The notes beneath the pieces are model-generated. The model did not search any database, was not told where the DNA came from, and saw only the letters and a program-made list of their open reading frames with translations. Shown here in pieces: positions 384 through 45,143 of a DNA stretch of 52,288 bases (positions within the stretch are counted from its first letter, which is position 1; every line of letters starts with the position of its first letter). The position numbers were made by a program, and so were the translations under genes. The DNA comes from Escherichia phage vB_EcoM_Bp10, in sequence record MN122072; one strand, written 5' to 3'.

Positions 384-812
384 ATGAAAGTTTGTAGTTC
401 ATGTAAAACACCAAAGCCTTTATCTGAATTCTATAAATGGAAGTTGGGTAAAGATGGGCACCGAGCAAGCTGCAAGTTTTGTGTAAACAAACAGAACAAC
501 AACAGCATAAGCAAGAATCCAGAAGCCAAACTTCGAGCAAGCCGTAAGTATAAGAAAGTTAATATCGACAAAGTTCGAGAACAGACTTCTTTATACAGAA
601 GCTCAAACCCAATAAAGCGTGCAGCACATGTTGCAGTCCAAATAGCTCTTAGAGAGCACAGACTTGTAAAAGGTGTTTGCGAATGTTGTGGAGATACTAA
701 TTCAGTAGCTCACCACGACGACTATTCTAAGCCTCTGGATGTAAGGTGGTTGTGCAACTTCCACCACAAACAGTGGCATACCGAGAACGGAGAAGGACTC
801 AATGGCAAGTAA
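384..812 (+). CDS. HNH endonuclease (homing-endonuclease-like)
   Basis: N-terminal CxxC..CxxC zinc ribbon; C-terminal CECCG...AHHDDYSKP...WLCNFHHKQWH matches the HNH nuclease signature; overlaps the start of the next gene. Confidence 0.65.
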   Translation: MKVCSSCKTPKPLSEFYKWKLGKDGHRASCKFCVNKQNNNSISKNPEAKLRASRKYKKVNIDKVREQTSLYRSSNPIKRAAHVAVQIALREHRLVKGVCECCGDTNSVAHHDDYSKPLDVRWLCNFHHKQWHTENGEGLNGK

Positions 813-1827
813 GAAGCGCGTACTGCTTCTCGTTGACGCGGATATGGTAGCATTTAGCCACTGCGCGGCAGAAGAATATGGGAAAGAGCCAGGAGATATA
901 AACTTCGCCAAGATTCAAATGTCCATAGACTCCAAAATGGAGTTCCTTGCCAAACGCTCTGGCGCTACGGAGATTATGAGTTTTGTATCCCCGTCCGAAA
1001 CTATGAGGCACGTATTTGCCCCTGACTACAAGGGCAACCGTGATAACGTATGGCGTCCAGAAAACCTCAAGAATGCGAAAGCGCATATTATGGTTGCCTG
1101 GAACGGTGTGTGGATGAAGGGTCTGGAAGCAGATGACCTCCTTGCTGTATTCGCACGTCATGAATACGAAATGACAATGGGCAAACGTAATGAGATTAAG
1201 AGCCTCAAGCGCATTGGTCCTTGCACATATGATGAAGTCTGGATTGCGTCGTTGGACAAAGACTTGCGACAAATCGGGCAGAATGGTGGTGCTGGTCCAG
1301 TAATTAAACATTACCAATGGGAACGAGAAACCCAGGGTATTGGTGAGAAGGTTGTAACTCCGAAGGATTACGGCGAACTCAAACTAATCATCAAGGACAA
1401 TGGCAAGTCGAAGAAGAAAGAAGTTAAAGGCAATGGCCCTAAATTCTTCTTGCATCAATTGCTTATCGGCGACTCAACGGATAATGTTATGGGTTGCGGA
1501 GTTCTTGAAGAAAGAATCTACAAAACTGGTGCCAAAGCTGGTGAAACTTATTTCCGTCGTGATGGCATTGGTGCAGTTGCTTCATTCGAAATGCTGGATG
1601 GTACAACCTCCTATGCAGAAGGTTTGAAGAAAGTTATTGGTGCATATATTATGCGCTTCGGGGATGGTTGGGAACAAGAGCTGCTCAAAGTGGGCCGTCT
1701 TGTTTACATGCACCATCAAATTGAAAAGGGTAATTGTGTTCGCTTGTGGCATTACAAAAACATTAACGAATACTTTGACCTTAAAGAGAATCGTATCCTT
1801 ACTCAAGAAGAGTACCTCCAGAAATAA
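802..1827 (+). CDS. 5'-3' exonuclease / flap endonuclease (PIN-like, Pol I 5' nuclease family)
   Basis: Motifs LLLVDADMVAF, GLEADDLLAV, LDKDLRQ and LLIGDSTDNVMG fit the acidic metal-binding clusters of FEN-type nucleases. Confidence 0.75.
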   Translation: MASKKRVLLLVDADMVAFSHCAAEEYGKEPGDINFAKIQMSIDSKMEFLAKRSGATEIMSFVSPSETMRHVFAPDYKGNRDNVWRPENLKNAKAHIMVAWNGVWMKGLEADDLLAVFARHEYEMTMGKRNEIKSLKRIGPCTYDEVWIASLDKDLRQIGQNGGAGPVIKHYQWERETQGIGEKVVTPKDYGELKLIIKDNGKSKKKEVKGNGPKFFLHQLLIGDSTDNVMGCGVLEERIYKTGAKAGETYFRRDGIGAVASFEMLDGTTSYAEGLKKVIGAYIMRFGDGWEQELLKVGRLVYMHHQIEKGNCVRLWHYKNINEYFDLKENRILTQEEYLQK

Positions 1828-12179: not shown

Positions 12180-12538
12180 TTAACCAGCGTCGAGCATTTA
12201 ACCGCTACACAACCACTCGTATGTATCTTGAGGTATATCAAGAAGGTTACTACGATGACAAAAATAATTGGGTTGGTGATTCATATGCTCCAAAGAAACC
12301 CATCCGATGTACTCCCATACCTTATGGTGACAGGGATTCTGGCGTAAGCGGCCAATCGCTTAAAGCCACAGAAGTCGGAGAGCGCCAACCTGCATTCATG
12401 CAAGTACATTCCCGAACTGAAATGCCGATGAAGTCTATCCTAACTATCTACGGCCTTCGTTATAAAGTCATTTCTGTTTCTGACTACAAGGCAGCTGGAT
12501 TTTTCGAAGTCATTGCTGCTAAGGAGCTAGAGAAATGA
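12176..12538 (+). CDS. neck / tail completion protein (candidate)
   Basis: 4-nt overlap with neighbours in the head-to-tail joining block. Confidence 0.4.
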   Translation: MINQRRAFNRYTTTRMYLEVYQEGYYDDKNNWVGDSYAPKKPIRCTPIPYGDRDSGVSGQSLKATEVGERQPAFMQVHSRTEMPMKSILTIYGLRYKVISVSDYKAAGFFEVIAAKELEK

Positions 12539-13047
12539 TTTACGATGAAGATATTCAGGCAATGAAGGATATTGTGGACGTCTGTGTTGGCGTCCCACGC
12601 TTCTCTTATGAGATGCAGATGAACGCACCTCGACCATCTGATAACTATGCCGCAATAAAATGCGTGTCGTCAGTTAATCCAGGCTTTGATGAAACTCGAA
12701 TCGAAGTACGCAATGGTGAGGAGGTATTTGTTACGAGAGGGGTTCGAATCTTAACCTTCTATATTCTTTTCTCACGTCGTGGGAGTGAATATGTTAAGTT
12801 TGACAATTCCTTCTTCCGTCCAGATGTTCAGGCCATGCTCAAGAGTAAAGGCTTTGCAACACTTGACAAAAATCCACTGAATCTTGCCTCGTTAACTCTT
12901 GAGACTAATTGGGAATTCCGAGAAGGAATCCAAATCAAATTCAATGTTCTGCGTGAAGACGTAATGAGCATTGGAACAATGTCTGACGCCAGTGTTGGCG
13001 GCAAATTCTACGACGGTGGTGAACCCATCCTAATTAAGGGAATCTAA
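12535..13047 (+). CDS. neck / tail terminator protein (candidate)
   Basis: Overlapping stop-start with neighbours, immediately upstream of the sheath-like gene. Confidence 0.4.
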   Translation: MIYDEDIQAMKDIVDVCVGVPRFSYEMQMNAPRPSDNYAAIKCVSSVNPGFDETRIEVRNGEEVFVTRGVRILTFYILFSRRGSEYVKFDNSFFRPDVQAMLKSKGFATLDKNPLNLASLTLETNWEFREGIQIKFNVLREDVMSIGTMSDASVGGKFYDGGEPILIKGI

Positions 13048-14496
13048 ATGGCAATTCCAATTTCCGACATCATCCAGGTCAACATCGCGGTAAGTCCTAA
13101 CGCTGTTGCCGTGGAAGGTTTTGGTCCTCTTCTGTTTCTGAGTAAAGAGTTTACTCCAACTCCGGGCGAAGCTGTTCCTGTTCGCCAGTATACTAGCATG
13201 GCTGCTGTATCTGCTGATTTCCCATCTGGTGAAATCTATCAAGCTGCATTAGCATGGTTCTCTCAGAAGCCAACTCCAAAGTATTTCCTCGTGGGTGCTA
13301 TTACTCATGAAGATGTTACTCTGGCAACTCCTGGTACTGTAACCGCATCTTCTGCTGCGACCCTGGAAACCATTAATGCAGTAACTAATGGTGTTCTGTC
13401 CATCAATATTAATGGCGTTGATAAGTCCACTGCACCTATCAACTTCTCGTCTGCAAAAGACTTTGCTGCTGCTGCATCAATGATTAATGCCGCATTTGTT
13501 GCTGCTGACATTCCTGCAACTGCTTCGCAGACCACAGGCACTTTCAAAATCACTACTAACGACACTGGTTCCACTGCTATCATTGGTAACGTGTATGGTT
13601 CTGCTGCTGAGGCATTTGAGTTAGATTCTGCTTCAAGCCCTGTACATGTTCAAGGTACTGATGAAGTGTCTATCGGCACCGACCTGAATGCAATCTTGAA
13701 CTCTGCGTTCGACTTCTTCTTTGTTGCTATTGACCGCAAATATCGTGGCAGTGCTGAGGGTAATAACCAGATGACTGTTGCTAAGTGGGCAGAAGCAAAC
13801 GGCAAAGTGTTTGGTTGGGCCGATAGCGACCCGCAGATTCTGGTTCCTGGTGCTGAGTCTAGCTTTAAGCGTGCCAAAGAGCAGAACCTCCAACGTACTT
13901 TGTTGGTGTATGATGCGTCTGATAATGGCGACGAATATCCAGAAGTTTCTATCCTGGGTCGTGCATCTACTGTTAACTTCAACGTTGCAAACTCCTCGCT
14001 CGTTCTGGCGTTTAAGCAAGGTCCAGCTATTAAGACTGCTGACTTGTCCCCGAACCAGCTTGCTGCACTTGAGCGTGTGAATGGTAACGCATTCATCAAC
14101 GTTGGTGGGAACACCATGTTCTACAACGGCAAGATGGCTGACGGTACTTGGTTCGATACCGTGCAGGGTGTTTCTTGGTTAACCTCCAAGATTCGTGCTA
14201 ACGTGTTCAACCTGTTCTACACTTCCACTACCAAGATTCCTTGGACAGACACTGGTGTTGCACTGGTGAACCAGCAAGTAACCCTGGCTCTGGAACTGGC
14301 AGTGACCAATGGTCTGATTGCCCCAGGTTACGACAATGAAGGCAACTTCTACCCTGATGGTTACAAAGTCTTGTCTACTGACTTGGCTCTTATGCAATCT
14401 CAGAAAGGTGCTCGTATCTGGGAAGGCACTTCCTTCATTGCAATTGGCTCTGGCGCATTGCAGGGTGCAGTTATCTCCGGCAACTTCGTTCAGTAA
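13048..14496 (+). CDS. tail sheath protein (candidate)
   Basis: 482-aa protein followed by a 151-aa tube-like protein, a frameshifting chaperone and a tape measure, the standard contractile-tail order. Confidence 0.55.
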   Translation: MAIPISDIIQVNIAVSPNAVAVEGFGPLLFLSKEFTPTPGEAVPVRQYTSMAAVSADFPSGEIYQAALAWFSQKPTPKYFLVGAITHEDVTLATPGTVTASSAATLETINAVTNGVLSININGVDKSTAPINFSSAKDFAAAASMINAAFVAADIPATASQTTGTFKITTNDTGSTAIIGNVYGSAAEAFELDSASSPVHVQGTDEVSIGTDLNAILNSAFDFFFVAIDRKYRGSAEGNNQMTVAKWAEANGKVFGWADSDPQILVPGAESSFKRAKEQNLQRTLLVYDASDNGDEYPEVSILGRASTVNFNVANSSLVLAFKQGPAIKTADLSPNQLAALERVNGNAFINVGGNTMFYNGKMADGTWFDTVQGVSWLTSKIRANVFNLFYTSTTKIPWTDTGVALVNQQVTLALELAVTNGLIAPGYDNEGNFYPDGYKVLSTDLALMQSQKGARIWEGTSFIAIGSGALQGAVISGNFVQ

Positions 14497-14506
14497 GGTG
14501 CGATAA

Positions 14507-14962
14507 GTGAAACAATATTCTTTCTATAATACCGACCTCATTATCGACGGTGCTCGTGTAGATGGTTTTACTTCTGGTAACTCTATCATCACTGCTCGTC
14601 GTAACGCACCTCAACACCTGCCTGTTATTGACGCGTATGGTAAGTTGGCTGTAGCTACTACGGCTGACTTGTCTGGTACTATTACTTTCCCGCTTCTGCA
14701 AACCGCAGACTGGAACGAAATCCTGTACAGCCGTGCTCAGTTAACTCAGGCAACTGGTCTATCTGGCAACAAATCTCTGTGGCAACCGCTCCAGATTCAG
14801 ATTGTTGACAAGATGGGTGATGTGCTGGTCAACGGTGTAAACGGCGCTATCTTGCAGCAACCTGCAATTCAGCGTGGTGTGTCCTTCACGTCTAACGTGT
14901 GGTCTATCTTTGTAGAACGCCTCCAGATTAAGACTGGCTCTTATCCGGAGATTGGCGTTTAA
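14507..14962 (+). CDS. tail tube protein (candidate)
   Basis: 151 aa, between sheath-like and chaperone genes. Confidence 0.55.
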   Translation: MKQYSFYNTDLIIDGARVDGFTSGNSIITARRNAPQHLPVIDAYGKLAVATTADLSGTITFPLLQTADWNEILYSRAQLTQATGLSGNKSLWQPLQIQIVDKMGDVLVNGVNGAILQQPAIQRGVSFTSNVWSIFVERLQIKTGSYPEIGV

Positions 14963-14973
14963 TTGGAGTAAGT

Positions 14974-15432
14974 ATGGCTTGTGAATTGCTTCAACGTGAA
15001 TTCACAAACTCCAAAGGTGAAACAGTGTTAGTCGTTGTTCGACAATTGTCGGCTTCGGCTGCACTGTCTCTTCACGCGGAGTTGGTAAGCAAGCTAGGCT
15101 CACGAGTATTCCCATTCATCGAAGGCAAATATAACTTCGCTGATATTATATACTTGATGCAGCAAGTGGAGCATACCGTATTCACAGAATTGTTTAAGCG
15201 TGTTATCAGCATGCACTCGTCCATAGATGGACAAGAAATCAAACCTGCATTATATGATATGCAGTTTAATGGCGAATTGATGTTGTCTTGCCATGTCTTT
15301 GCTTTCGTGCTCGAAGCAAACTTCCTTGATTTTTTCAAGCAAGGGCTCGAAATCAACGAACAGAGACGATTGGAGGCGGAGGAAGCATCCAAGCTGGCAG
15401 AGCAGAAGAATTCGAGTCCGGAGACAGTTTAG
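14974..15432 (+). CDS. tail assembly chaperone, short form
   Basis: 152 aa immediately upstream of the tape measure; contains the TTTTTTC slippery heptamer near its 3' end. Confidence 0.6.
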   Translation: MACELLQREFTNSKGETVLVVVRQLSASAALSLHAELVSKLGSRVFPFIEGKYNFADIIYLMQQVEHTVFTELFKRVISMHSSIDGQEIKPALYDMQFNGELMLSCHVFAFVLEANFLDFFKQGLEINEQRRLEAEEASKLAEQKNSSPETV

Positions 15433-15608
15433 TATCCCTGTTCCCCGACATAAAATATTTTCTGCATCGTCCTATAATCGAAGACAGTTCTCTTTGCAAG
15501 TTACATGAATTGCAAGATGGAACCTATTCGATTATGGACTTATTGCTATTCCACGACATTCTCGATTTGCGTAAGAAACTCGAACCAGTAGATGAAGACA
15601 ATGGCTAA
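15330..15608 (+). CDS. tail assembly chaperone -1 frameshift extension (long form)
   Basis: Heptamer T TTT TTC at 15330-15336 in the zero frame; the -1 frame is open from 15330 to TAA 15606-15608, ending at the tape-measure start. Confidence 0.5.
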   Translation, partial: FFQARARNQRTETIGGGGSIQAGRAEEFESGDSLVSLFPDIKYFLHRPIIEDSSLCKLHELQDGTYSIMDLLLFHDILDLRKKLEPVDEDNG

Positions 15609-18600
15609 TCAAAAAGATTTAATGAAGTTGAGCGTTAATGAGTTAATTGCATTAGGCTCTCAAAGCGGTCTGACTTTCCACGCTGGTATGAAGAAGTCGC
15701 ACATGGTTCAACAACTTAGTGCGAGCGCTGCTTCGGGATGGCTGGATACAAATGCAGAATTAATGGGTGGGTCGTTTGAAGACGACAGTTTAATTACTGA
15801 ATCTCTGGGCGACTCTTCCATGATTTCAGACGCTGCCCACATTGCACAAGTGCTTTCAAGTGCAGGCTACACAGAAGCATTTCATGCAGCAATGAATGGC
15901 CCATCACACCATGTAGAAGCTGTTCACGCATACATGGAAAGGCTTGGTGTCAACACAGACGATGTGTGGATGCACATGCCAAAGCCAAATCCGAACTTAC
16001 CGCAAGGTAGTTTCAATATGCTTAATGCCTATATGCGAGATACTTTGCAAGGGCATCAAGACATTATGCCGGAAATCCCAGGCCATTATGCTGGCGATAT
16101 TATGGCAGAATACTCCACCAACCGTGGAAACATTGCTGACTCTTATAACTACATGGCCCACATGTATGTTGACCGAGAGCAATACAGCAATCATGAACAA
16201 TACGCAAGAGACATTAGTCGAGTTGCCAAACGTCTGGAACGAGAGTTACCCTCAGCCTTTAAGGAAGTTGGGTATACATCTGCATCTAATGTAGGAAATA
16301 AATCGGCCCCACATATTTCTTACATGGACGCACTCCCTCAGATTGGCTCTCCTTCAATTGTTTCTGGCATTGCACATCCTCGTGCGCCCCTTAACGCATC
16401 TGGACTTCCTCTCGGTTCTTATGGTTCTGGCATAAATCCAGAATACTCCCTCACTGCATCACTAACTGGTGGCACAGGTTGGAGCGAACCAAGCAAGGCT
16501 TTGTATTCTTCTATTAGTGAAGCTGTTAAATCTGCTGCCAAAGTTTATTCTGGCTCCAAAGGGATGCTGAATACCCGTCACGAAGTATCTGACCGTGACA
16601 TGATTATGGATAGTGCAACACGCTACACAGATTTGGAAGAAGCCAGGAGCGGGTACGAAAACCTTCGTTCTGAACTTGCAGATGAGCCAGCTTATTCTGC
16701 ATCAAGTGTTCGAGCTATTCTCGAAAACACTTATGATAAAATGGATGCCGAACCTGTTCGCATTCCAAAGATGAAGGGAGCTTCACAGCGAGTCGATAAA
16801 GATTCACTGTCAACATCTACAGATTTTACAGCACAACTTGGGGAGGCCACCAATTGGAACTCTGCAAGAATGCGTCGTGAGGAACTTGCGATTGCAAATA
16901 TGGATAGTGCTGGATTCCGTGATGTATCAGACTATGGTACAGGACGTTCCGAGTCCCCCGTCCGATTCCATGACTTAGAACAGGGCAGCCAAGAGTGGCT
17001 GGACTTCCGTAAAAATTATGACATAACTGGTTCAACTGTTGGAACCTTCTTAGGAAACAACCCATATACCCGACCTTGGGCTGGGATGATTGATAAGATT
17101 GGCTTATCTCGTAGTAAAGAGCACAGCGATTTCACCAAGAAGATGTTCGCTGATGGTCACAGGACGGAAGAAGAAGCACGCGCTCGTGTTGGTAAGGAAT
17201 TTGGATTCGATATCAAACAAACTGGCGCTATAACAAATGACAACTATCCCGCCTTCATGTATTCTCCTGATGGTCTTATTGGGGATGATGCCATTTGGGA
17301 GCACAAGAATCCGCAAAGGGCTGGTAAGTTTGCTGACCTTCTTAAAGGCGACCATCCAGATTACATGGACCAAATTCAATTTGGCTTGCACGTTTCTGGT
17401 CGTTCTCGTGCTCTGTTCTCACAAACCATCAACGACGAAACACGTTCACAATGGATTGAGAAGGACGAAGGATGGTACGAAAGAAACCGAAATCGCCTTG
17501 ATTCTGTGCTTGGCCGTCTTGATGCTGGGCGAGAGTTTGTTAGAAACAATGCTGGGCTAGGGCGAGAAGAGCTGATTGCTGGTGCAAGAAGTGCAATGAC
17601 TGGTGATGGAATCTGGAAGGATATTCGTCAAAAGTCCACTCGTGGCTATTCTGCTGCTGCTGGTACTCCAGAAGACCCGTTTATTGGCTCACGCTCTTCG
17701 TACAACCCAGAAGCATCCTACTCTGACTACAAGCCAAACTTTGTAATGCACGAGCAAAACTTTCCAGCAACCACAGGAAACGGTGATACTGGAAATGACT
17801 CGATGGCATTGTCTGTTAAGAAAGGTATTCTTGCTGCCCAGGAAGAAAACAGGCAGAAGGGTATTAGTGCAGATGCAGACTTTGATGGCAAAGCCGACTC
17901 AATGGGCTGGAACCGTGAAAGATTTGATGCTGCCAATGGCGGTGGATATTCTGGCGGTGGCGGTGGTCGTGGCGGCAACTTCACAAGTGGTGGCAACTAC
18001 TATGATGACTACGGTCGCATGGGTGGTTCGTTAGCTGCTGGCATTGCTGGTGGCAGTATTGGTTCAGCAACCAACGGAGTTATGCAAGCATTGATGGCGA
18101 CTCCTGCTGGGCGTATGGCTGCTGTAGGCATTGGTGCTATTCAGATTGGCAATGAAGCTGCTGAATACATGAATGACTTTATCGGCAACTCGCTTGATGC
18201 TGGTGTGATAAATCCTAATGAATATTCTTCCATGTCGCAAGGCTTGGAGATGTTAGGACTCAACTCACAACAAGCGGCACGTCTGAATCAAACCACACAT
18301 AGTGCCTACAACACCATGCTTAACGGCGACCCCAGCGCCGCTGTGAACATCGTTCGCGGAAGTAGGGGATTGCTCACCATAGGTGATATTCGTGCGACAG
18401 GCGGCGACCCTGTGGCCCTAGCTCGCATCATGCAGGAAAGGGGCAAGGAGCGTGGCTGGAGTCAGGCCCGTATCGCAGGTGCTGCCGAAATGGCTGGCCT
18501 GAATGGGATGGCCCGTGCCTACGACCGCACGGAATACAGCCATGAGCAAGCTGGTTCGGTGGTAGAAGCGGGTAGAAACTCTGACTTTGCCGAAGGCATG

Positions 18601-19317
18601 GCTCAGTCAGAAATGTTGCAGGGAAGCCGCGTACGGATGCTGCCGAGCTACAACGTGCCACAAAGTGTCTTATCTAACGGTGCTTCTGTATTCGAAGCTG
18701 GTAGCGATGCACTTGACGGTGTACGAACTGGATTCAACAAAACACGAGAATTTGCTGGAAGTGTTTACGACTTTATCGCTCAAGAAGAATCTGGCGGTAG
18801 TGAATATAACAGGGATGGTTCTCGTGTAACAAGTCGTACTGGTGCTCGTGGAATAATGCAAATTCTTCCTTCAACTGCCCGTGACCCAGGATTTGGAATC
18901 AAGCCGTCTGATGGAACTCCAGAAGATGATGCACGAGTTGGTCGTGAATACTATGACGCAATGTACAAGCGTTATGGCGACCACGAAAAGGCAATGGCTG
19001 CTTACACCGATGGTCCTGGCACTGTTGACAAAGCTATTGACAAGAATGGGCTGGATTGGCTAACTGCTGTTCCTGCACAAGCACAGAATCGCGTTAAAGC
19101 ATTCCGTGAATGGTCCAAGTCTTCTCAGTCTTTGGAAGAAGGTGCTACAGGGTTTACCCGTAATGGAATGTCATACGGACAAACCCAAACTGTTGTTAAT
19201 GTTAAGATTGATGCTAAGGTCAACAACCAGACTGCTTCTGCTACAGTTGCAATTCCTGGTGGCCAGACTGTGACTCAACAAATGAACATGAACAACGGTG
19301 CGCAACAAAGAAGGTAA
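15592..19317 (+). CDS. tail tape measure protein with lytic transglycosylase (SLT) domain
   Basis: 1241 aa following the chaperone pair; Gly-rich segments; ESGGSEYNRDGSRVTSRTGARGIMQILPSTA matches the SLT catalytic Glu-Ser and IMQI motif. Confidence 0.75.
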   Translation: MKTMANQKDLMKLSVNELIALGSQSGLTFHAGMKKSHMVQQLSASAASGWLDTNAELMGGSFEDDSLITESLGDSSMISDAAHIAQVLSSAGYTEAFHAAMNGPSHHVEAVHAYMERLGVNTDDVWMHMPKPNPNLPQGSFNMLNAYMRDTLQGHQDIMPEIPGHYAGDIMAEYSTNRGNIADSYNYMAHMYVDREQYSNHEQYARDISRVAKRLERELPSAFKEVGYTSASNVGNKSAPHISYMDALPQIGSPSIVSGIAHPRAPLNASGLPLGSYGSGINPEYSLTASLTGGTGWSEPSKALYSSISEAVKSAAKVYSGSKGMLNTRHEVSDRDMIMDSATRYTDLEEARSGYENLRSELADEPAYSASSVRAILENTYDKMDAEPVRIPKMKGASQRVDKDSLSTSTDFTAQLGEATNWNSARMRREELAIANMDSAGFRDVSDYGTGRSESPVRFHDLEQGSQEWLDFRKNYDITGSTVGTFLGNNPYTRPWAGMIDKIGLSRSKEHSDFTKKMFADGHRTEEEARARVGKEFGFDIKQTGAITNDNYPAFMYSPDGLIGDDAIWEHKNPQRAGKFADLLKGDHPDYMDQIQFGLHVSGRSRALFSQTINDETRSQWIEKDEGWYERNRNRLDSVLGRLDAGREFVRNNAGLGREELIAGARSAMTGDGIWKDIRQKSTRGYSAAAGTPEDPFIGSRSSYNPEASYSDYKPNFVMHEQNFPATTGNGDTGNDSMALSVKKGILAAQEENRQKGISADADFDGKADSMGWNRERFDAANGGGYSGGGGGRGGNFTSGGNYYDDYGRMGGSLAAGIAGGSIGSATNGVMQALMATPAGRMAAVGIGAIQIGNEAAEYMNDFIGNSLDAGVINPNEYSSMSQGLEMLGLNSQQAARLNQTTHSAYNTMLNGDPSAAVNIVRGSRGLLTIGDIRATGGDPVALARIMQERGKERGWSQARIAGAAEMAGLNGMARAYDRTEYSHEQAGSVVEAGRNSDFAEGMAQSEMLQGSRVRMLPSYNVPQSVLSNGASVFEAGSDALDGVRTGFNKTREFAGSVYDFIAQEESGGSEYNRDGSRVTSRTGARGIMQILPSTARDPGFGIKPSDGTPEDDARVGREYYDAMYKRYGDHEKAMAAYTDGPGTVDKAIDKNGLDWLTAVPAQAQNRVKAFREWSKSSQSLEEGATGFTRNGMSYGQTQTVVNVKIDAKVNNQTASATVAIPGGQTVTQQMNMNNGAQQRR

Positions 19318-19390: not shown

Positions 19391-20500
19391 ATGCCGTGGC
19401 TACGCAGAGTTGAAGTAATAGTTTCACGTAAAGAAGACCCAAGCATTCGAACAGTATTTAAATCACATCGTATTGATTTTGAAGTCCGTTCTACTGTTGG
19501 GTGGCCCGCCGATACAGCAAACATAACTCTGTTTAACTTGTCGTTAGAAGAAGTTAAGTTCCTCCAGGACAAGTCCTACGGAGATATGTATATTGAAATT
19601 CGTGCAGGGTATGCAGAAGATGAACGTTCAGACTCTAGTGGCGGGACTTCTAGTGGCGGTGTTAAGAAGTTTGGCCAGAAGGCTGAACAGAGTGACCGCG
19701 TAACAGTGTCTACATCACTACCAACCATCTTCTCCGGAATTATTACAAACGCAGTTGGCTATAGAAAGCCTCCTGAACATGTAACACAGTTGTTTTGTAT
19801 TTCCAAGGCATATGGTGCATCCACTGATTTCAAACAGTTGACCGCAATCAAGCCTGGAACCAAACTCATTGATGCAATGCGCTCAATGTGTTCCGACTAT
19901 GGGTTCAATACCATCTCTACATTTGGTGTTGAAGATTCGGTCCTTGAAACAGTGATGCCTCGTGGGCGTGTGTTCCATGACACGTTCTTAAACGAATTTC
20001 GTAACATGCTTGGCGAATACAATTTGTTATACACTGTTACAACTGGTGAAGTGCAAATCTTCCCAGATACCTTTGGTGATAAAGATGCTGTAAACAGAAT
20101 GTCTAAAGACAGAGAGCCAGTCCAGCTAGATGAAGACTCTGTTATTGGCAACCCTGTTGCTGGAATCTGCACCTACACTTTAAATACATTCCTAAACCCA
20201 TCTTTCCAACCAGGTATGATTCTTGATGTATCTCCTTTGCTCGGTAAGAAGTTGCTTGCTAACGGTGTAACTTCTGTCAATGGTGAAGGTATTGTTCTTA
20301 ACACTGACCAGTCTGTATTCCGGTGGGCTGTTGAGGACAAATACTTTATCATGGAAGTTGTGCATAAAGGTTCGACTCACACAACCACTTATCAAACATC
20401 AATCACTGCAATCTTGGGTGGTAATACGATGATGGGTGGTAAGGAAGCTGCGTGGCAGGAAATGTATGCTAACAGTGGAATGGCAATGGAGTCATTTTAA
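19391..20500 (+). CDS. tail / baseplate protein (candidate)
   Basis: 369 aa directly after the tape measure; assigned by position only. Confidence 0.45.
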   Translation: MPWLRRVEVIVSRKEDPSIRTVFKSHRIDFEVRSTVGWPADTANITLFNLSLEEVKFLQDKSYGDMYIEIRAGYAEDERSDSSGGTSSGGVKKFGQKAEQSDRVTVSTSLPTIFSGIITNAVGYRKPPEHVTQLFCISKAYGASTDFKQLTAIKPGTKLIDAMRSMCSDYGFNTISTFGVEDSVLETVMPRGRVFHDTFLNEFRNMLGEYNLLYTVTTGEVQIFPDTFGDKDAVNRMSKDREPVQLDEDSVIGNPVAGICTYTLNTFLNPSFQPGMILDVSPLLGKKLLANGVTSVNGEGIVLNTDQSVFRWAVEDKYFIMEVVHKGSTHTTTYQTSITAILGGNTMMGGKEAAWQEMYANSGMAMESF

Positions 20501-21387
20501 TGTCTATCTTTGATACCGACCTCATTGGTGGTGTGTCCTCTGGCTTGAAGAATTTCAGTTATGGGCATCATCCATCTATTGTTATGTGGTCCAATGGACC
20601 TGCATCTCAGAAGGAAGAAGAGTCAGGACTGTTTGGTGGGTTTGCGAAATCTCTTGAGAGCTTGCCTATTGTTGGTGAATCTGCCGTAGAAAGTTTTAAC
20701 TCTTTTAAATTCGATGCTATGGTTAGTGAAGAGCACGCATCGGAAACAACTGTAACCAAGTTCCCTGTCAGTTCTGGGTTCCTGGTTAGCGACCATGTTA
20801 TTAATCAGAACAGGGTACTTAAGTTAACCGCTGTTGCTGTCAACATGCAGAACTCCTCCATGTGGACTGCATCTGTACAAGGTTTGTCCGTTGCTTCTGG
20901 TGCAATCTTCAATAGCCCGATTATCCCAATTCTTGGTGGCATTGCTGGTGGCGTTGCTTCTGCATTTGAAACAAGCAACCGAATCCAGTCTACCTACGAT
21001 TTGTTTAACAGCTTCCGTGTTACGGGGCAGAAGTTATACATCTCCACCATTCTGGGGCCTTATTTGAATTGCGTAGTAACCTCAATCAAAACCAAACATG
21101 ATAAAATGTCTTCTGCAATGTTGGCAGTTGAAATTATGTTTGAGGAATTGCAGACAGTTGATGAAGATGCTCTTGCCAGCGAAGCTCGTAAAGCAATGGA
21201 ATCAATGTCCGACTACTCTGAATTTGCAAAGGTTGCTCAAAGTTTGGGGATGGGTGTTCTTGGAGGTGTTCCGCTTCCTGGACTTGGTGCTCTTGGCACT
21301 CTTCCGACCAAACAGTTATCTAACTTGAAAGGTAAGTTAAGTAAACTGGCTTCTCCACTTTCTTCCATCAAGGGGCGTATCCTATGA
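20500..21387 (+). CDS. baseplate structural protein (candidate)
   Basis: Overlapping stop-start (TAATG) with the upstream gene; within the baseplate block. Confidence 0.4.
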   Translation: MSIFDTDLIGGVSSGLKNFSYGHHPSIVMWSNGPASQKEEESGLFGGFAKSLESLPIVGESAVESFNSFKFDAMVSEEHASETTVTKFPVSSGFLVSDHVINQNRVLKLTAVAVNMQNSSMWTASVQGLSVASGAIFNSPIIPILGGIAGGVASAFETSNRIQSTYDLFNSFRVTGQKLYISTILGPYLNCVVTSIKTKHDKMSSAMLAVEIMFEELQTVDEDALASEARKAMESMSDYSEFAKVAQSLGMGVLGGVPLPGLGALGTLPTKQLSNLKGKLSKLASPLSSIKGRIL

Positions 21388-28615: not shown

Positions 28616-29170
28616 ATGCTATCATTCAAAGTTCTTGCACTTCTGACAGCTCTAGTTCACATCAACGCCCCAGCTTCGGTTGGGGCAGTGAATTCTGCTA
28701 TTACAGATTTTGCAAGTCATTCTTATTTAAATGGAAGTCTGAAACTATCTTCTTCACAACGCAAAGAGCTAGAATGCTACACTAAAGTTATCTGGTATGA
28801 AGCTCGCGGAGAAGACAAACATGGAAAGATTCTGGTAGCTAATGTCGTCCGTAATAGAACCAAGTTCGGGAAGCCATTCGCTAACACCGTTTGTGATGTT
28901 GTCTATCAACGCAATCAATTTGCATGGACAAGAGAAGCAAAGAAGAAGAATGCTCAATGGAAGCATGTAGCAAAGATTAATTATGCCACAGAACAACAAC
29001 AAGTTCTGGACACCATTAATGTTGCAATCTCTTTTGTATTATTTAATCAACCCTCTGTCACCAAAGCAACCCACTTTTGTACAGCATCGGAGAAGTGCAA
29101 CTTCAAGAATGTCAAAGGTTTGGGACGTTACGGTGGCCACAAATTCTATGAGTATCTAGGAAATCTGTAA
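28616..29170 (+). CDS. secreted cell-wall hydrolase, SleB/CwlJ family (endolysin candidate)
   Basis: N-terminal signal-like [24 protein letters not shown]; core VIWYEARGE...VVRNR...QFAW matches the Hydrolase_2 signature. Confidence 0.7.
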
Positions 29171-39673: not shown

Positions 39674-39932
39674 AGAACTGGCTGACCATCTTGAGGCAGC
39701 AAAACAAGAGCTTGCAACTCACTCAGAACGTGTAAAAACACTGAAAGAGCAAGGCTCAACGTCCGAAGAAATCCAGCTGTTCACAGACAATATCTGGTTT
39801 TCAATGAATCGTGCACAGTTTATCCAGATTCAGGAAGACCGCCTTGCTGAACTGGAAAAGCGTGTTGAAACACTCGAGAATTTACTTGCAACACTGCAAG
39901 AAACTTTGGACCAGGAGTTGAAAAATGTCTAA
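39663..39932 (+). CDS. hypothetical coiled-coil protein
   Basis: Heptad-like charged sequence throughout. Confidence 0.4.
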   Translation: MKVEELADHLEAAKQELATHSERVKTLKEQGSTSEEIQLFTDNIWFSMNRAQFIQIQEDRLAELEKRVETLENLLATLQETLDQELKNV

Positions 39933-40323
39933 CGTCAAACTGGGCCAACGTTCACTTGACCGACTCAAAGGTGTAAATCCTTCATTAGTAGCAGTTTTCA
40001 AGCGTGCATGTGAAACAATGCCGTTTGATATAACTGTTCTTGAAGGATTGCGCACTTATGAGCGTCAACAAGAGCTTTTAAAGCAAGGTGCAACCAAAGT
40101 TTCAGTTAGCCGACACATGTCAGGCAACGCTTTGGACATTGCGCCGTATCCAATTGACTGGAATGACCTCGAACGATTCCAAACTGTAGCTGAGCACATG
40201 TTCAAAGCCGCAGAAGAGATTGGAATTACTATTCGTTGGGGCGGGACATGGGAACGAACCTTCACTAAGCCAGTGAAATGGGCTAAGTTCCTTGATGCAC
40301 CACACTTCGAACTTCCGGCATAA
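39925..40323 (+). CDS. peptidase M15 family (L-alanyl-D-glutamate peptidase-like) lysin
   Basis: SRHMSGNALDI (His-x6-Asp) and DAPHFEL (second His) fit the zinc-binding motifs of the M15/VanY family. Confidence 0.7.
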   Translation: MSNVKLGQRSLDRLKGVNPSLVAVFKRACETMPFDITVLEGLRTYERQQELLKQGATKVSVSRHMSGNALDIAPYPIDWNDLERFQTVAEHMFKAAEEIGITIRWGGTWERTFTKPVKWAKFLDAPHFELPA

Positions 40324-44580: not shown

Positions 44581-45019
44581 CAGTTGGATATTTCTAGAGG
44601 ACGGACGAGCACACTGGAATGTCTTCAATTGGTTTAGTGTGAGAAGCTATGGCAATTTGAAACGTAACTCCTTGGGGAAGTGCTCCTCTGGATTTCCCTC
44701 CACACAGGAATCTCAAGCCTGTGGCAGCGACTTCGAAGCTGCACTGCGTAACCTAAATTCACCCTAAAGTGAGTTGCCCTGAGTATGGAAATAAACTGCT
44801 CATAACCGATGGTATCTACAAAGGTAGATTAAATCAGGTTGCCTGTTGGTACTTGGGTTCAACACCTGCTTGCACTCGCAAAGTAGTGCCTCGTACCTGA
44901 GATGAAGTGAGTCGGGACCATCAATCCCACGTTATGCCAAAACATAGTAGGCGGCTCACAGATTCTACAAGCCTCGCAGTTCGGGAAAACCTGCGTTATC
45001 AAAACCCCCTTTTTTATTT

Positions 45020-45113
45020 GGACGAGTAGCTCAGAAGGTTTGCATTGTGCTCAGTCAGGTAGAGCAATCTGTTCGACAGATGTGTCGTTGGTTCGAATCC
45101 AACCTCGTCCACC
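45020..45113 (+). tRNA. tRNA-like gene, non-canonical (duplicated D-arm 5' segment, 5-nt anticodon loop)
   Basis: GGACGAG (45020-26) pairs with CTCGTCC (45104-10); T-arm GTTGG-TTCGAAT-CCAAC (45087-103); canonical D-arm GCTCAGTCAGGTAGAGC (45049-65) preceded by an extra TAGCTCAGAAGG; anticodon stem ATCTG/CAGAT has a 5-nt loop. Confidence 0.35.
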
Positions 45114-45143
45114 CACTTTAATAATAGCAATACTGGAGTCCTT

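What the first reader, a model, noticed from the sequence alone, without database searches (positions are those of the whole stretch)
15592..19317. Tape measure protein carrying a lytic transglycosylase motif near its C-terminus
The SLT-like motif lies around residue 1060 of 1241, inside the length-determining protein rather than in a separate virion enzyme. It would be delivered to the peptidoglycan as the tape measure exits during ejection.
Basis: partly seen in the sequence, partly recalled or inferred. Interest (0 to 1): 0.35.

Follow-up and report, generated by a model that had tools for sequence, protein, structure and literature searches.

The report
Phage tape measure carrying transglycosylase and nuclease

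Summary

The window is 100% identical to Escherichia phage vB_EcoP_Bp7 (Chaseviridae), where the gene is annotated 'putative tail fiber'.

The tape-measure (TMP) reading rests on context:
- The gene order is sheath, tube, chaperone, this gene, baseplate hub.
- The chaperone carries a conserved, unannotated -1 frameshift (T_TTT_TTC at 15330, 90-aa extension ending on the ORF's start).
- A 63%-identical homolog is found in virions.

It is not a classic ruler. It matches no TMP family, its longest predicted helix is 32 aa, and it is about 55% longer than the 116.5 nm tail of a relative requires.

The more interesting feature was missed. Residues 456-650 are a full lambda-exonuclease (YqaJ) domain (profile vs LHK-Exo E=2e-36) with invariant R473/D560/E570/K572. 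It is retained in distant family members that show no SLT match. A weak SAP-like fold sits at the N-terminus.

A TMP carrying SLT is a known kind; a nuclease-bearing TMP is a new variant. Delivery and nuclease function are inferred, not shown.

The parts
13048..14496 (+). Tail sheath gene (context)
   Evidence: PHROG 205 tail sheath, E=4e-102.
14507..14962 (+). Tail tube gene (context)
   Evidence: PHROG 280. Annotated as tail tube in Mangalitsa and PP101.
14974..15432 (+). Tail assembly chaperone, frame-0 product of 152 aa (analogue of lambda gpG / P2 gpE)
   Evidence: PHROG 11820 tail assembly chaperone, E=2.5e-75.
15330..15336 (+). In-phase slippery heptamer T_TTT_TTC for a -1 programmed frameshift
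   Evidence: It is the only in-phase X_XXY_YYZ site in the gene, and the -1 frame opens exactly here. The identical heptamer is present in Mangalitsa, PP101, 4HA13, SSEM1 and Myduc. An RNA structure begins 6 nt downstream (-24.6 kcal/mol, z=-2.85).
15330..15608 (+). -1-frame extension giving a product of about 211 aa (analogue of gpGT / E+E'). Its stop at 15606-15608 overlaps the start of the big ORF.
   Evidence: The extension's amino-acid sequence (FFQARARN..GGGG..LFPDIKYFLHRPIIEDSSLC..LQDGTYS..DLL.FH.ILDLR) is conserved across six genera. None of the six relatives' records inspected annotates it as a frameshift product.
15592..19317 (+). Tape-measure-slot protein, 1241 aa; probable start at 15601
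   Evidence: 100% identical to Bp7 gp51, annotated 'putative tail fiber'. PHROG 19855 'virion structural protein' matches over the full length. The 4HA13 homolog was found in virions with 64-67% peptide coverage (PMC9699118, Table S2).
15610..15732 (+). Residues ~7-47: possible SAP / Rho-N-like helix-extended-helix domain (nucleic-acid-binding fold)
15826..16731 (+). Residues 79-380: conserved helical region of unknown fold
16957..17541 (+). Residues 456-650: lambda-exonuclease / YqaJ PD-(D/E)XK nuclease domain
   Evidence: Pfam YqaJ E=4.3e-13, 50.2 bits against GA 22. TIGR03033 E=1.7e-14. Family profile against PDB: LHK-Exo 3syy E=2e-36, lambda exonuclease E=3e-17, both over the whole domain. 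Q464, W469, R473, D560, E570, K572, Q594 and Q596 are invariant in 12 members that are only 24-56% identical to the query.
17932..18165 (+). Residues 781-858: Gly-rich linker followed by the only hydrophobic, glycine-zipper-like segment (about 816-858)
   Evidence: Composition and hydropathy scan. A Gly-rich stretch followed by the helical domain also aligns weakly with Aeromonas phage ZPAH14.
18166..18621 (+). Residues 859-1010: conserved helical domain, the family core
   Evidence: AF2 pLDDT 76-91. It is among the best conserved regions. The mid region 640-1056 has only 29 relatives among 1.84 billion representatives, nearly all 1150-1450 aa long.
18760..19131 (+). Residues 1057-1180: SLT lytic transglycosylase domain; catalytic E1066
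19132..19314 (+). Residues 1181-1241: conserved C-terminal tail with predicted beta strands, presumed hub-binding end
   Evidence: Conserved but pLDDT <50. The hub-binding role is inferred from TMP topology in other phages.
19391..20500 (+). Baseplate hub gene (context)
   Evidence: PHROG 196 baseplate hub, E=6e-52. The homolog is annotated as P2 gpD family in PP101 and as a T4 gp27 homolog in 4HA13.

Best explanation
This is the gpT/gpH-equivalent tape-measure and ejection protein of a phiEcoM-GJ1-like myovirus (Chaseviridae, Carltongylesvirus; identical to phage Bp7). It is built as a string of modules:
- a possible SAP-like DNA-binding motif at the N-terminus;
- a helical region of unknown fold;
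- a complete lambda-exonuclease-type nuclease;
- a Gly-rich linker and a glycine-zipper hydrophobic segment;
- a conserved helical core domain;
- an SLT lytic transglycosylase;
- a short C-terminal tail.

Proposed mechanism. The protein is assembled inside the tail tube with the help of the upstream chaperone pair, which is made by a -1 frameshift. Its C-terminus lies at the baseplate hub and its N-terminus lies toward the head, next to the DNA end. On sheath contraction it leaves C-terminus first. The SLT domain then cuts glycan strands locally, filling the role that the gp5 lysozyme plays in T4 and gp16 plays in T7. The hydrophobic segment helps cross the inner membrane. The N-terminal half, carrying the DNA-binding motif and the nuclease, enters together with the leading genome end. 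There the exonuclease most plausibly acts on linear DNA ends, for example resecting the 5' strands of the ~3.2 kb direct terminal repeats or capping the end against RecBCD.

What is shown: the gene position, the frameshift signal, both enzyme domains with intact and invariant active sites, and virion presence of a homolog.

What is inferred: the orientation in the tail, the ejection order, enzymatic activity, and above all the target of the nuclease.
For: Identity and taxonomy.

TMP slot: the order is tail completion, sheath, tube, chaperone, ORF, hub. No other large ORF lies in the tail module.

Frameshift: a conserved -1 frameshift in the chaperone ends on the ORF's start codon, with a downstream RNA structure.

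Virion protein: the 4HA13 homolog (63% identical, P0024) was detected with 64-67% peptide coverage.

Nuclease: Pfam E=4e-13; family profile vs LHK-Exo E=2e-36 and vs lambda exonuclease E=3e-17; the catalytic D560-x9-E570-x-K572 motif and R473 are invariant in the 12 deeply diverged members aligned in A4, and the motifs are also retained by eye across the 21 aligned YqaJ segments.

Distribution: YqaJ is present in the same slot in Aeromonas phage ZPAH14 and Shewanella phage Spp001 and in 6 of 7 distant representatives. SLT is detected in only 2 of those 7.

Separate lysis genes: the phage has its own holin and endolysin (Hydrolase_2) and an M15 peptidase, so the SLT is not the lysis enzyme.

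Genome ends: a 3234-bp direct terminal repeat is predicted in Mangalitsa.
Against: No sequence match to any curated TMP family in Pfam, NCBIfam or PHROGs.

The AF2 models are only about 50% helical, with a longest helix of 32 residues and long low-confidence linkers, unlike the long helices expected for a TMP.

The 1204-aa homolog would span about 180 nm as an alpha helix, but the 4HA13 tail measures 116.5 nm.

Folded 20-kDa domains would not fit a tail-tube lumen as a trimer (general knowledge), so their state in the virion is unknown.

No single-strand annealing partner for the exonuclease was found in the genome.

There are no biochemical data for either enzyme domain. The 4HA13 virion preparation also contained non-structural proteins such as SSB, so the MS evidence is not perfectly clean.
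Confidence: 0.7

Rival explanations
1. The protein occupies the TMP slot but is mainly an ejected cargo or pilot protein. Tail length would then be set by only a sub-segment of it, such as the Gly-rich, hydrophobic and helical core, or by another mechanism. The enzymatic domains would sit outside the tube lumen, in the hub cavity or the neck.
For: About 430 residues exceed the number needed for a 116.5 nm tail. The domain predictions are globular. There is no homology to TMP families. The C-terminal half resembles 600-700-aa 'LT_GEWL / lysozyme-like virion structural / lytic tail fiber' proteins, including Acinetobacter phage Presley and Delftia phage RG-2014 (Foldseek E 1e-7 to 1e-4). These matches are stronger than those to named TMPs (E of about 2e-3 and weaker).
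Against: There is no alternative ruler gene in the tail module. The chaperone frameshift pair is specific to TMP handling. This rival overlaps with the main explanation rather than excluding it.
Confidence: 0.2
2. The YqaJ domain is a catalytically silent relic. It would be used only to grip the DNA end in the virion, or serve as a structural spacer.
For: There is no partner annealase. The TIGR03033 score of 54.2 is below that model's cut-off of 68. An exonuclease is an odd passenger for a tail lumen.
Against: Every residue needed for catalysis and 5'-phosphate binding is invariant in members down to 24% identity, while the surrounding sequence has diverged. The whole fold aligns end to end with active enzymes.
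Confidence: 0.15
3. The nuclease acts in the producing cell rather than after ejection. It would serve as the phage's recombination or host-DNA-degrading exonuclease before, or instead of, incorporation into tails, possibly after proteolytic release.
For: YqaJ-family proteins are otherwise stand-alone cytoplasmic recombination exonucleases of 147-382 aa. TMPs of other phages are known to be processed (general knowledge).
Against: The gene lies in the late structural operon. The phage already has a PIN-like 5'-3' exonuclease and an endonuclease VII in its replication module. The 128-kDa homolog shows 64-67% peptide coverage in virions. The fusion is fixed in all inspected lineages of the family.
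Confidence: 0.1
4. It is a tail fibre, as annotated in GenBank for Bp7, phiEcoM-GJ1, flopper and others.
For: Only the inherited annotations.
Against: The position is between the chaperone and the hub. There are no fibre or receptor-binding domains. The real fibre genes lie downstream at about 24.7-28.2 kb. The domain content is enzymatic.
Confidence: 0.02

Closest known systems
P2 gpT / lambda gpH tape measure proteins with their frameshifted chaperones (P2 E/E+E', lambda G/GT)
   Same: Same gene order (sheath, tube, chaperone with -1 frameshift, large protein, hub). The chaperone extension ends at the start of the large gene. A homolog of the large protein is a virion protein.
   Different: No detectable sequence homology. 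Not dominated by long helices. About 1.5 times longer than the tail requires. Carries two enzyme domains.
Mycobacteriophage TM4 TMP with a peptidoglycan-hydrolase motif (Piuri & Hatfull 2006, PMC1796659), and enterococcal phage TMPs with lytic transglycosylase domains (PMC10194240)
   Same: A cell-wall hydrolase domain embedded in the TMP, presumed to act during DNA injection.
   Different: Those are siphoviruses of Gram-positive or mycolate hosts. Here the phage is a contractile-tailed coliphage, the SLT lies near the C-terminus, and a nuclease is present as well.
T7 gp16 internal core / ejection protein with an SLT domain (Moak & Molineux 2000; structure 6yt5)
   Different: gp16 is a head-internal protein of a podovirus, and its SLT is N-terminal (from memory). 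It is not in a TMP slot and has no nuclease.
Lambda exonuclease / LHK-Exo / RecE (YqaJ family, PF09588)
   Same: Full-length domain match. The D-x9-E-x-K active site, the W-x3-R 5'-phosphate pocket motif and the Y-x-D/A-Q-x-Q motif are shared.
   Different: Known members are stand-alone proteins of 147-382 aa. They usually pair with an annealase and act in the cytoplasm as toroidal oligomers (from memory). Here the domain is internal to a 1241-aa virion protein with no annealase found.
DNA-end-binding proteins delivered with the genome (T4 gp2, Mu N); functional analogy from memory only
   Same: Virion proteins thought to enter with the DNA and deal with its ends or RecBCD.
   Different: Those are not nucleases and not TMPs. 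No homology was tested or claimed.

Membership tests
Tape measure protein (functional class) | Gene lies between the tail assembly chaperone and the baseplate hub / distal tail genes | tested here: met
Tape measure protein (functional class) | Upstream chaperone gene with a conserved programmed -1 frameshift (G/GT type) | tested here: met
   T_TTT_TTC at 15330. The extension beginning at the heptamer reads 92 codons (90 residues beyond F121) and is conserved across six genera. A downstream structure has z=-2.85.
Tape measure protein (functional class) | Sequence membership in a curated TMP family (Pfam, NCBIfam, or a PHROG family named as tape measure) | tested here: not met
   Only its own PHROG 19855 'virion structural protein', plus SLT and YqaJ, were found. 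No TMP model matched, even at relaxed E-values.
Tape measure protein (functional class) | Length proportional to tail length (about 1.5 A per residue) | tested here: not met
   The 4HA13 homolog has 1204 aa, which would give about 180 nm, against a measured 116.5 nm. The ratio fits only if about 430 residues (roughly the enzyme domains) do not count.
Tape measure protein (functional class) | Predominantly long alpha-helical / coiled-coil chain | tested here: inconclusive
   About 50% helix, longest helix 32 residues, large regions with pLDDT <50. Monomer AF2 is a weak test for a lumen-confined trimer.
Tape measure protein (functional class) | Present in the virion | tested here: met
   From the literature on a homolog only: 4HA13 LC-MS/MS with 64-67% coverage (PMC9699118).
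Tape measure protein (functional class) | Altering its length alters tail length | not testable with these tools
   Needs phage genetics and electron microscopy.
SLT / family-1 lytic transglycosylase (PF01464) | Profile match above the curated threshold | tested here: met
   49.7 bits against 21.3; E=3.1e-13.
SLT / family-1 lytic transglycosylase (PF01464) | Catalytic Glu (E-S motif) and downstream signature motifs conserved | tested here: met
   E1066, S1067, Q1090, A1137, Y1138 and G1141 are invariant in 19 sequences.
SLT / family-1 lytic transglycosylase (PF01464) | Goose-lysozyme-like fold | tested here: met
SLT / family-1 lytic transglycosylase (PF01464) | Muralytic activity producing 1,6-anhydro-muropeptides | not testable with these tools
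   Needs a zymogram or muropeptide analysis.
Lambda exonuclease / YqaJ (PF09588) | Profile match above the curated threshold | tested here: met
   Pfam 50.2 bits against 22. Note that NCBIfam TIGR03033 scores 54.2 bits, below its cut-off of 68.
Lambda exonuclease / YqaJ (PF09588) | PD-(D/E)XK catalytic triad D...E-x-K | tested here: met
   D560, E570 and K572 are invariant in the 12-sequence A4 alignment, and the motif is retained by eye across the 21 aligned segments. They align with SPDGL...E-I/L-K of LHK-Exo and lambda exonuclease.
Lambda exonuclease / YqaJ (PF09588) | Whole-domain similarity to solved family members | tested here: met
   Family profile vs 3syy E=2e-36 (positions 8-189 of 192) and vs lambda exonuclease 1avq E=2.8e-17 (positions 2-182).
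Lambda exonuclease / YqaJ (PF09588) | Partner single-strand annealing protein encoded nearby | tested here: not met
   None is annotated in Mangalitsa, and none was found by PHROGs among the larger unassigned ORFs.
Lambda exonuclease / YqaJ (PF09588) | Processive 5'-3' dsDNA exonuclease activity as a toroidal oligomer | not testable with these tools
   Needs biochemistry or a multimer structure.
SAP / Rho-N helix-extended-helix domain | Fold or profile match | tested here: inconclusive

The most novel reading that the evidence does not exclude
The tape measure protein doubles as a delivery vehicle for an active lambda-exonuclease-type nuclease that enters the cell with the leading end of the genome. 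Three copies from the TMP trimer could form the toroid typical of this enzyme family. The nuclease would then resect the ~3.2 kb terminal repeats to start recombination or concatemer formation, shield the end from RecBCD, or destroy competing linear DNA. This would be an injected DNA-processing enzyme built into the tail ruler, conserved across Chaseviridae.
Probability: 0.3. Interest if true: 0.7.

Novelty: new variant of a known kind. Interest (0 to 1): 0.42.

Why it matters
A wall-cutting domain on a tape measure protein is textbook. Confirming it mainly corrects a mis-annotation ('tail fiber') that has been copied through many GenBank records.

The nuclease is different. Virion-delivered DNA enzymes are rare. 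A lambda-exonuclease domain with an invariant active site, fixed in the tail-lumen protein across the inspected lineages of a phage family, suggests that these phages start processing DNA ends at the moment of injection. That bears on how T7-like genomes with long terminal repeats survive RecBCD and begin recombination-dependent replication.

The case also shows that a TMP can carry several hundred residues of enzymatic cargo beyond what the tail length needs. This matters for predicting tail length from gene length and for engineering phage tails or tailocins to deliver proteins.

Tried and rejected
- Searching for TMP-family homology of the non-enzymatic parts (residues 1-455, 640-1056, 1152-1241) in Pfam and PHROGs at relaxed E-values, and of the whole protein in NCBIfam, gave nothing beyond the protein's own PHROG.
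- The search for homologous proteins with the YqaJ domain alone returned no hits at all, not even the protein's own family. I treat this as a limitation of the word index, not a biological result. The repeat with a profile found only short stand-alone YqaJ proteins and again not the TMP family. Absence of other long fusions is therefore suggestive only.
- Literature searches for 'YqaJ' or 'nuclease domain' together with 'tape measure' found no description of such a fusion. The genome papers for Mangalitsa and Myduc do not mention the tape measure, transglycosylase, exonuclease, frameshift or chaperone; those for PP101, the Yersinia phages and SKA49 do not mention the tape measure or its domains. 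The original phiEcoM-GJ1 paper is not held.
- The tail-fibre annotation was considered and rejected on position and domain content.
- An endolysin role for the SLT was rejected because a holin-endolysin pair exists at about 28.2-29.2 kb.
- A search for a partner annealase found none.


Full report
**What is at the coordinates.** ORF 15592-19317 (+) is uninterrupted and encodes 1241 aa. The DNA is 100% identical to Escherichia phage vB_EcoP_Bp7. It is 95-96% identical to SA91KD, DE15, flopper, SKA49 and ST32, and 83-87% identical to Mangalitsa and phiEcoM-GJ1. These are small myoviruses with a T7-like RNA polymerase, classified as Chaseviridae, Cleopatravirinae, Carltongylesvirus. Across records the same gene is variously labelled 'putative tail fiber', 'virion structural protein', 'putative endonuclease', 'tail tube initiator', 'hypothetical protein' or 'tape measure protein'.

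**The SLT observation.**
- Pfam SLT matches residues 1061-1152 with E=3.1e-13 and 49.7 bits against a threshold of 21.3.
- PHROG lysin, 'lytic tail fiber' and transglycosylase families hit the same region.
- An AlphaFold2 model of residues 640-1241, built with 62 family sequences, gives pLDDT of about 90 for residues 1059-1179.
- In an alignment of 19 family members 43-89% identical to the query, E1066-S1067 (the catalytic Glu-Ser), Q1090 and A1137-Y1138-x-x-G1141 are invariant.

**Is it the tape measure protein?**

Evidence for:
- PHROG assignments give the gene order tail completion (12535-13047), sheath (13048-14496), tube (14507-14962), tail assembly chaperone (14974-15432), this ORF, baseplate hub (19391-20500), then further baseplate genes. 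This is the P2 order, and no other large ORF lies in the tail module.
- The chaperone gene has a single in-phase slippery heptamer, T_TTT_TTC, at 15330-15336. The -1 frame opens exactly there and runs 92 codons to a stop at 15606-15608, overlapping the ATG at 15601.
- The heptamer and the amino-acid sequence of the extension are conserved in Mangalitsa, PP101, 4HA13, SSEM1 and Myduc. Faunus has G_TTT_TTC instead.
- A stable RNA structure begins 6 nt downstream (z=-2.85).
- This is the G/GT (E/E+E') arrangement that precedes TMP genes. None of the six relatives' records inspected annotates it as a frameshift product.
- The 63%-identical 4HA13 homolog was identified in purified phage with 64-67% peptide coverage (PMC9699118).

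Evidence against a classic ruler:
- No TMP family in Pfam, NCBIfam or PHROGs matches any part of the protein.
- The two AF2 models show about 50% helix, a longest helix of 32 residues, and long low-confidence linkers at 54-78, 382-419, roughly 673-858, 1013-1056 and 1180-1241.
- The 4HA13 tail is 116.5 nm, whereas 1204 residues of helix would span about 180 nm.
- The surplus of about 430 residues is close to the summed size of the YqaJ, SLT and SAP-like modules.

I conclude that this is the TMP-slot protein and very probably contains the ruler. A large part of it is cargo.

**The missed feature.**
- Pfam YqaJ matches residues 468-604 (E=4.3e-13). PHROG RecE-like exonuclease families and TIGR03033 'lambda-exonuclease family' match too.
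- phmmer finds the Laribacter LHK-Exo structure 3syy. A profile of 12 diverged family domains matches it at E=2e-36, and matches lambda exonuclease at about 3e-17, both over essentially the whole domain.
- The alignment places SPD560GL...WE570HK572 on SPDGL...IEIK (LHK-Exo) and SPDGL...LELK (lambda), and YMDQ594IQ on YIKQMQ (LHK-Exo) and YMAQVQ (lambda).
- The N-terminal EQGSQEW469LDFR473 matches EQRTEEWFAAR of LHK-Exo. From my memory of the lambda exonuclease sequence, this corresponds to the W24...R28 5'-phosphate pocket.
- In 12 domains only 24-56% identical to the query, Q464, W469, R473, T479, G522, E526, S558, D560, E570, K572, Q594 and Q596 are invariant.

That pattern is what purifying selection on catalysis looks like.

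**Distribution.**
- 88 clusters of full-length homologs (39-94% identical, mostly 1197-1284 aa) nearly all carry YqaJ plus SLT.
- 78 phage records contain at least 80% of the protein. Those listed infect Escherichia, Shigella, Yersinia, Erwinia, Pectobacterium, Pantoea or Proteus, and all those inspected are Cleopatravirinae.
- In Aeromonas phage ZPAH14 (sheath 33% identical), the same slot holds a 1205-aa protein annotated 'exonuclease / yqaJ'. It has a Pfam YqaJ match and no SLT match.
- In Shewanella phage Spp001 the slot is split into two ORFs, and the first has YqaJ.
- phmmer of the non-enzymatic mid region (640-1056) against 1.84 billion representatives finds only 29 proteins, almost all 1150-1450 aa.
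- Of seven distant ones, six have YqaJ and two have SLT.
- The nuclease, the Gly-rich linker and the helical core therefore define the family, and the SLT match is the less widely retained part.
- Outside the family, the YqaJ profile retrieves only stand-alone proteins of 147-382 aa. The tblastn hits outside the family are ordinary 'exonuclease' genes.

**Other modules.**
- Residues 79-380 and 859-1010 are well conserved and confidently modelled but match nothing.
- The only hydrophobic stretch is the glycine-zipper-like 816-858.
- Foldseek against viral models aligns the C-terminal half with 600-700-aa 'LT_GEWL / lysozyme-like virion structural / lytic tail fiber' proteins, among them Acinetobacter phage Presley and Delftia phage RG-2014 (E 1e-7 to 1e-4). 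It aligns only weakly with named TMPs (E of about 2e-3 and weaker).

**Mechanism.**

Shown:
- Gene context.
- The frameshift signal.
- Two enzyme domains with intact active sites.
- Presence of a homolog in virions.
- Separate lysis genes: a holin and a Hydrolase_2 endolysin at about 28.2-29.2 kb, plus an M15 peptidase.
- A T7-like replication module with its own PIN-like exonuclease, endonuclease VII and ligase, and a predicted 3234-bp direct terminal repeat in Mangalitsa.

Inferred from TMP topology in other phages:
- The C-terminus sits at the hub and leaves first, so the SLT meets the peptidoglycan.
- The hydrophobic segment helps breach the inner membrane.
- The N-terminal half, next to the DNA end, follows with the genome.

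What the nuclease then does is open. An exonuclease needs ends, so the phage's own terminal repeats, protection from RecBCD, or competing linear DNA are the plausible targets. No annealase partner was found.

My estimates of probability:
- The SLT is an entry enzyme on the TMP-slot protein: about 0.85.
- The nuclease is catalytically active: about 0.7.
- The nuclease is delivered into the cell and acts on DNA ends: about 0.3-0.4.

**Comparison and novelty.** TMPs with peptidoglycan hydrolase domains are well known: TM4 (PMC1796659), enterococcal phages (PMC10194240) and, from memory, T5 Pb2. So are SLT domains on ejected proteins (T7 gp16). The finding as written is thus a new member of a known kind, and the sequence itself is already public. 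I found no paper describing a nuclease domain inside a TMP, although automated annotations already hint at it ('exonuclease/yqaJ' in ZPAH14, 'putative endonuclease' in SKA49). I therefore rate the whole object as a new variant of a known kind, of moderate interest.

Noticed in passing
window 14974-15608 (+): An unannotated -1 programmed frameshift in the tail assembly chaperone. The slippery site T_TTT_TTC lies at 15330 and the -1 frame reads 92 codons from it (90 residues beyond F121), giving a product of about 211 aa. It is conserved across six Cleopatravirinae genera. In the records it appears as a short 'hypothetical protein' (PP101_66, Myduc gp50) or is missing.
   Followed up: yes
window 15592-15825; L001 9001-9230: The Mangalitsa record starts its 'tape measure protein' about 76 codons downstream of the conserved N-terminus, cutting off the SAP-like region that is conserved throughout the family. 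In Bp7 the likely start is the ATG at 15601 rather than 15592.
   Followed up: partly
window 45019-45115 (+): ARAGORN calls a 97-nt tRNA-Leu (anticodon CAG). The SKA49 paper describes the single tRNA of these phages as tRNA-Arg, with an intron in GJ1. Either the identity call or the intron handling differs.
   Followed up: no
window 28616-29170 and 39925-40323 (+): Besides the SLT on the TMP, the phage has two more wall hydrolases. One is a SleB-like Hydrolase_2 endolysin next to the holin. The other is an M15 peptidase (T5-like L-Ala-D-Glu peptidase) in the early region, with no obvious lysis partner.
   Followed up: partly
window 20500-21387 (+): The gene after the hub, annotated 'tail tube initiator (P2 gpU family)' in relatives, matches Pfam Dit_like (PF21821, E=3e-20). 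It also has a weak hit on residues 71-115 to a PHROG family annotated as endolysin.
   Followed up: no
L010 9927-13387 (Shewanella phage Spp001): The TMP slot is split into 674-aa and 423-aa ORFs separated by 164 nt, with YqaJ in the first. This could be a real split, a sequencing error or a recoding event.
   Followed up: no
whole window vs NC_079181.1: The window is a different circular permutation of the Bp7 record: the TMP lies at 15592 here and at 37266 in the record. The record is 327 bp longer. Relatives have ~3.1-3.2 kb direct terminal repeats, which are collapsed in such assemblies.
   Followed up: no
window 802-1827 and 384-812 (+): The replication module already encodes a PIN-like 5'-3' exonuclease (PHROG 107) and an endonuclease VII/HNH-like protein. 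The YqaJ domain on the TMP is therefore a second, different exonuclease in a 52-kb genome.
   Followed up: partly
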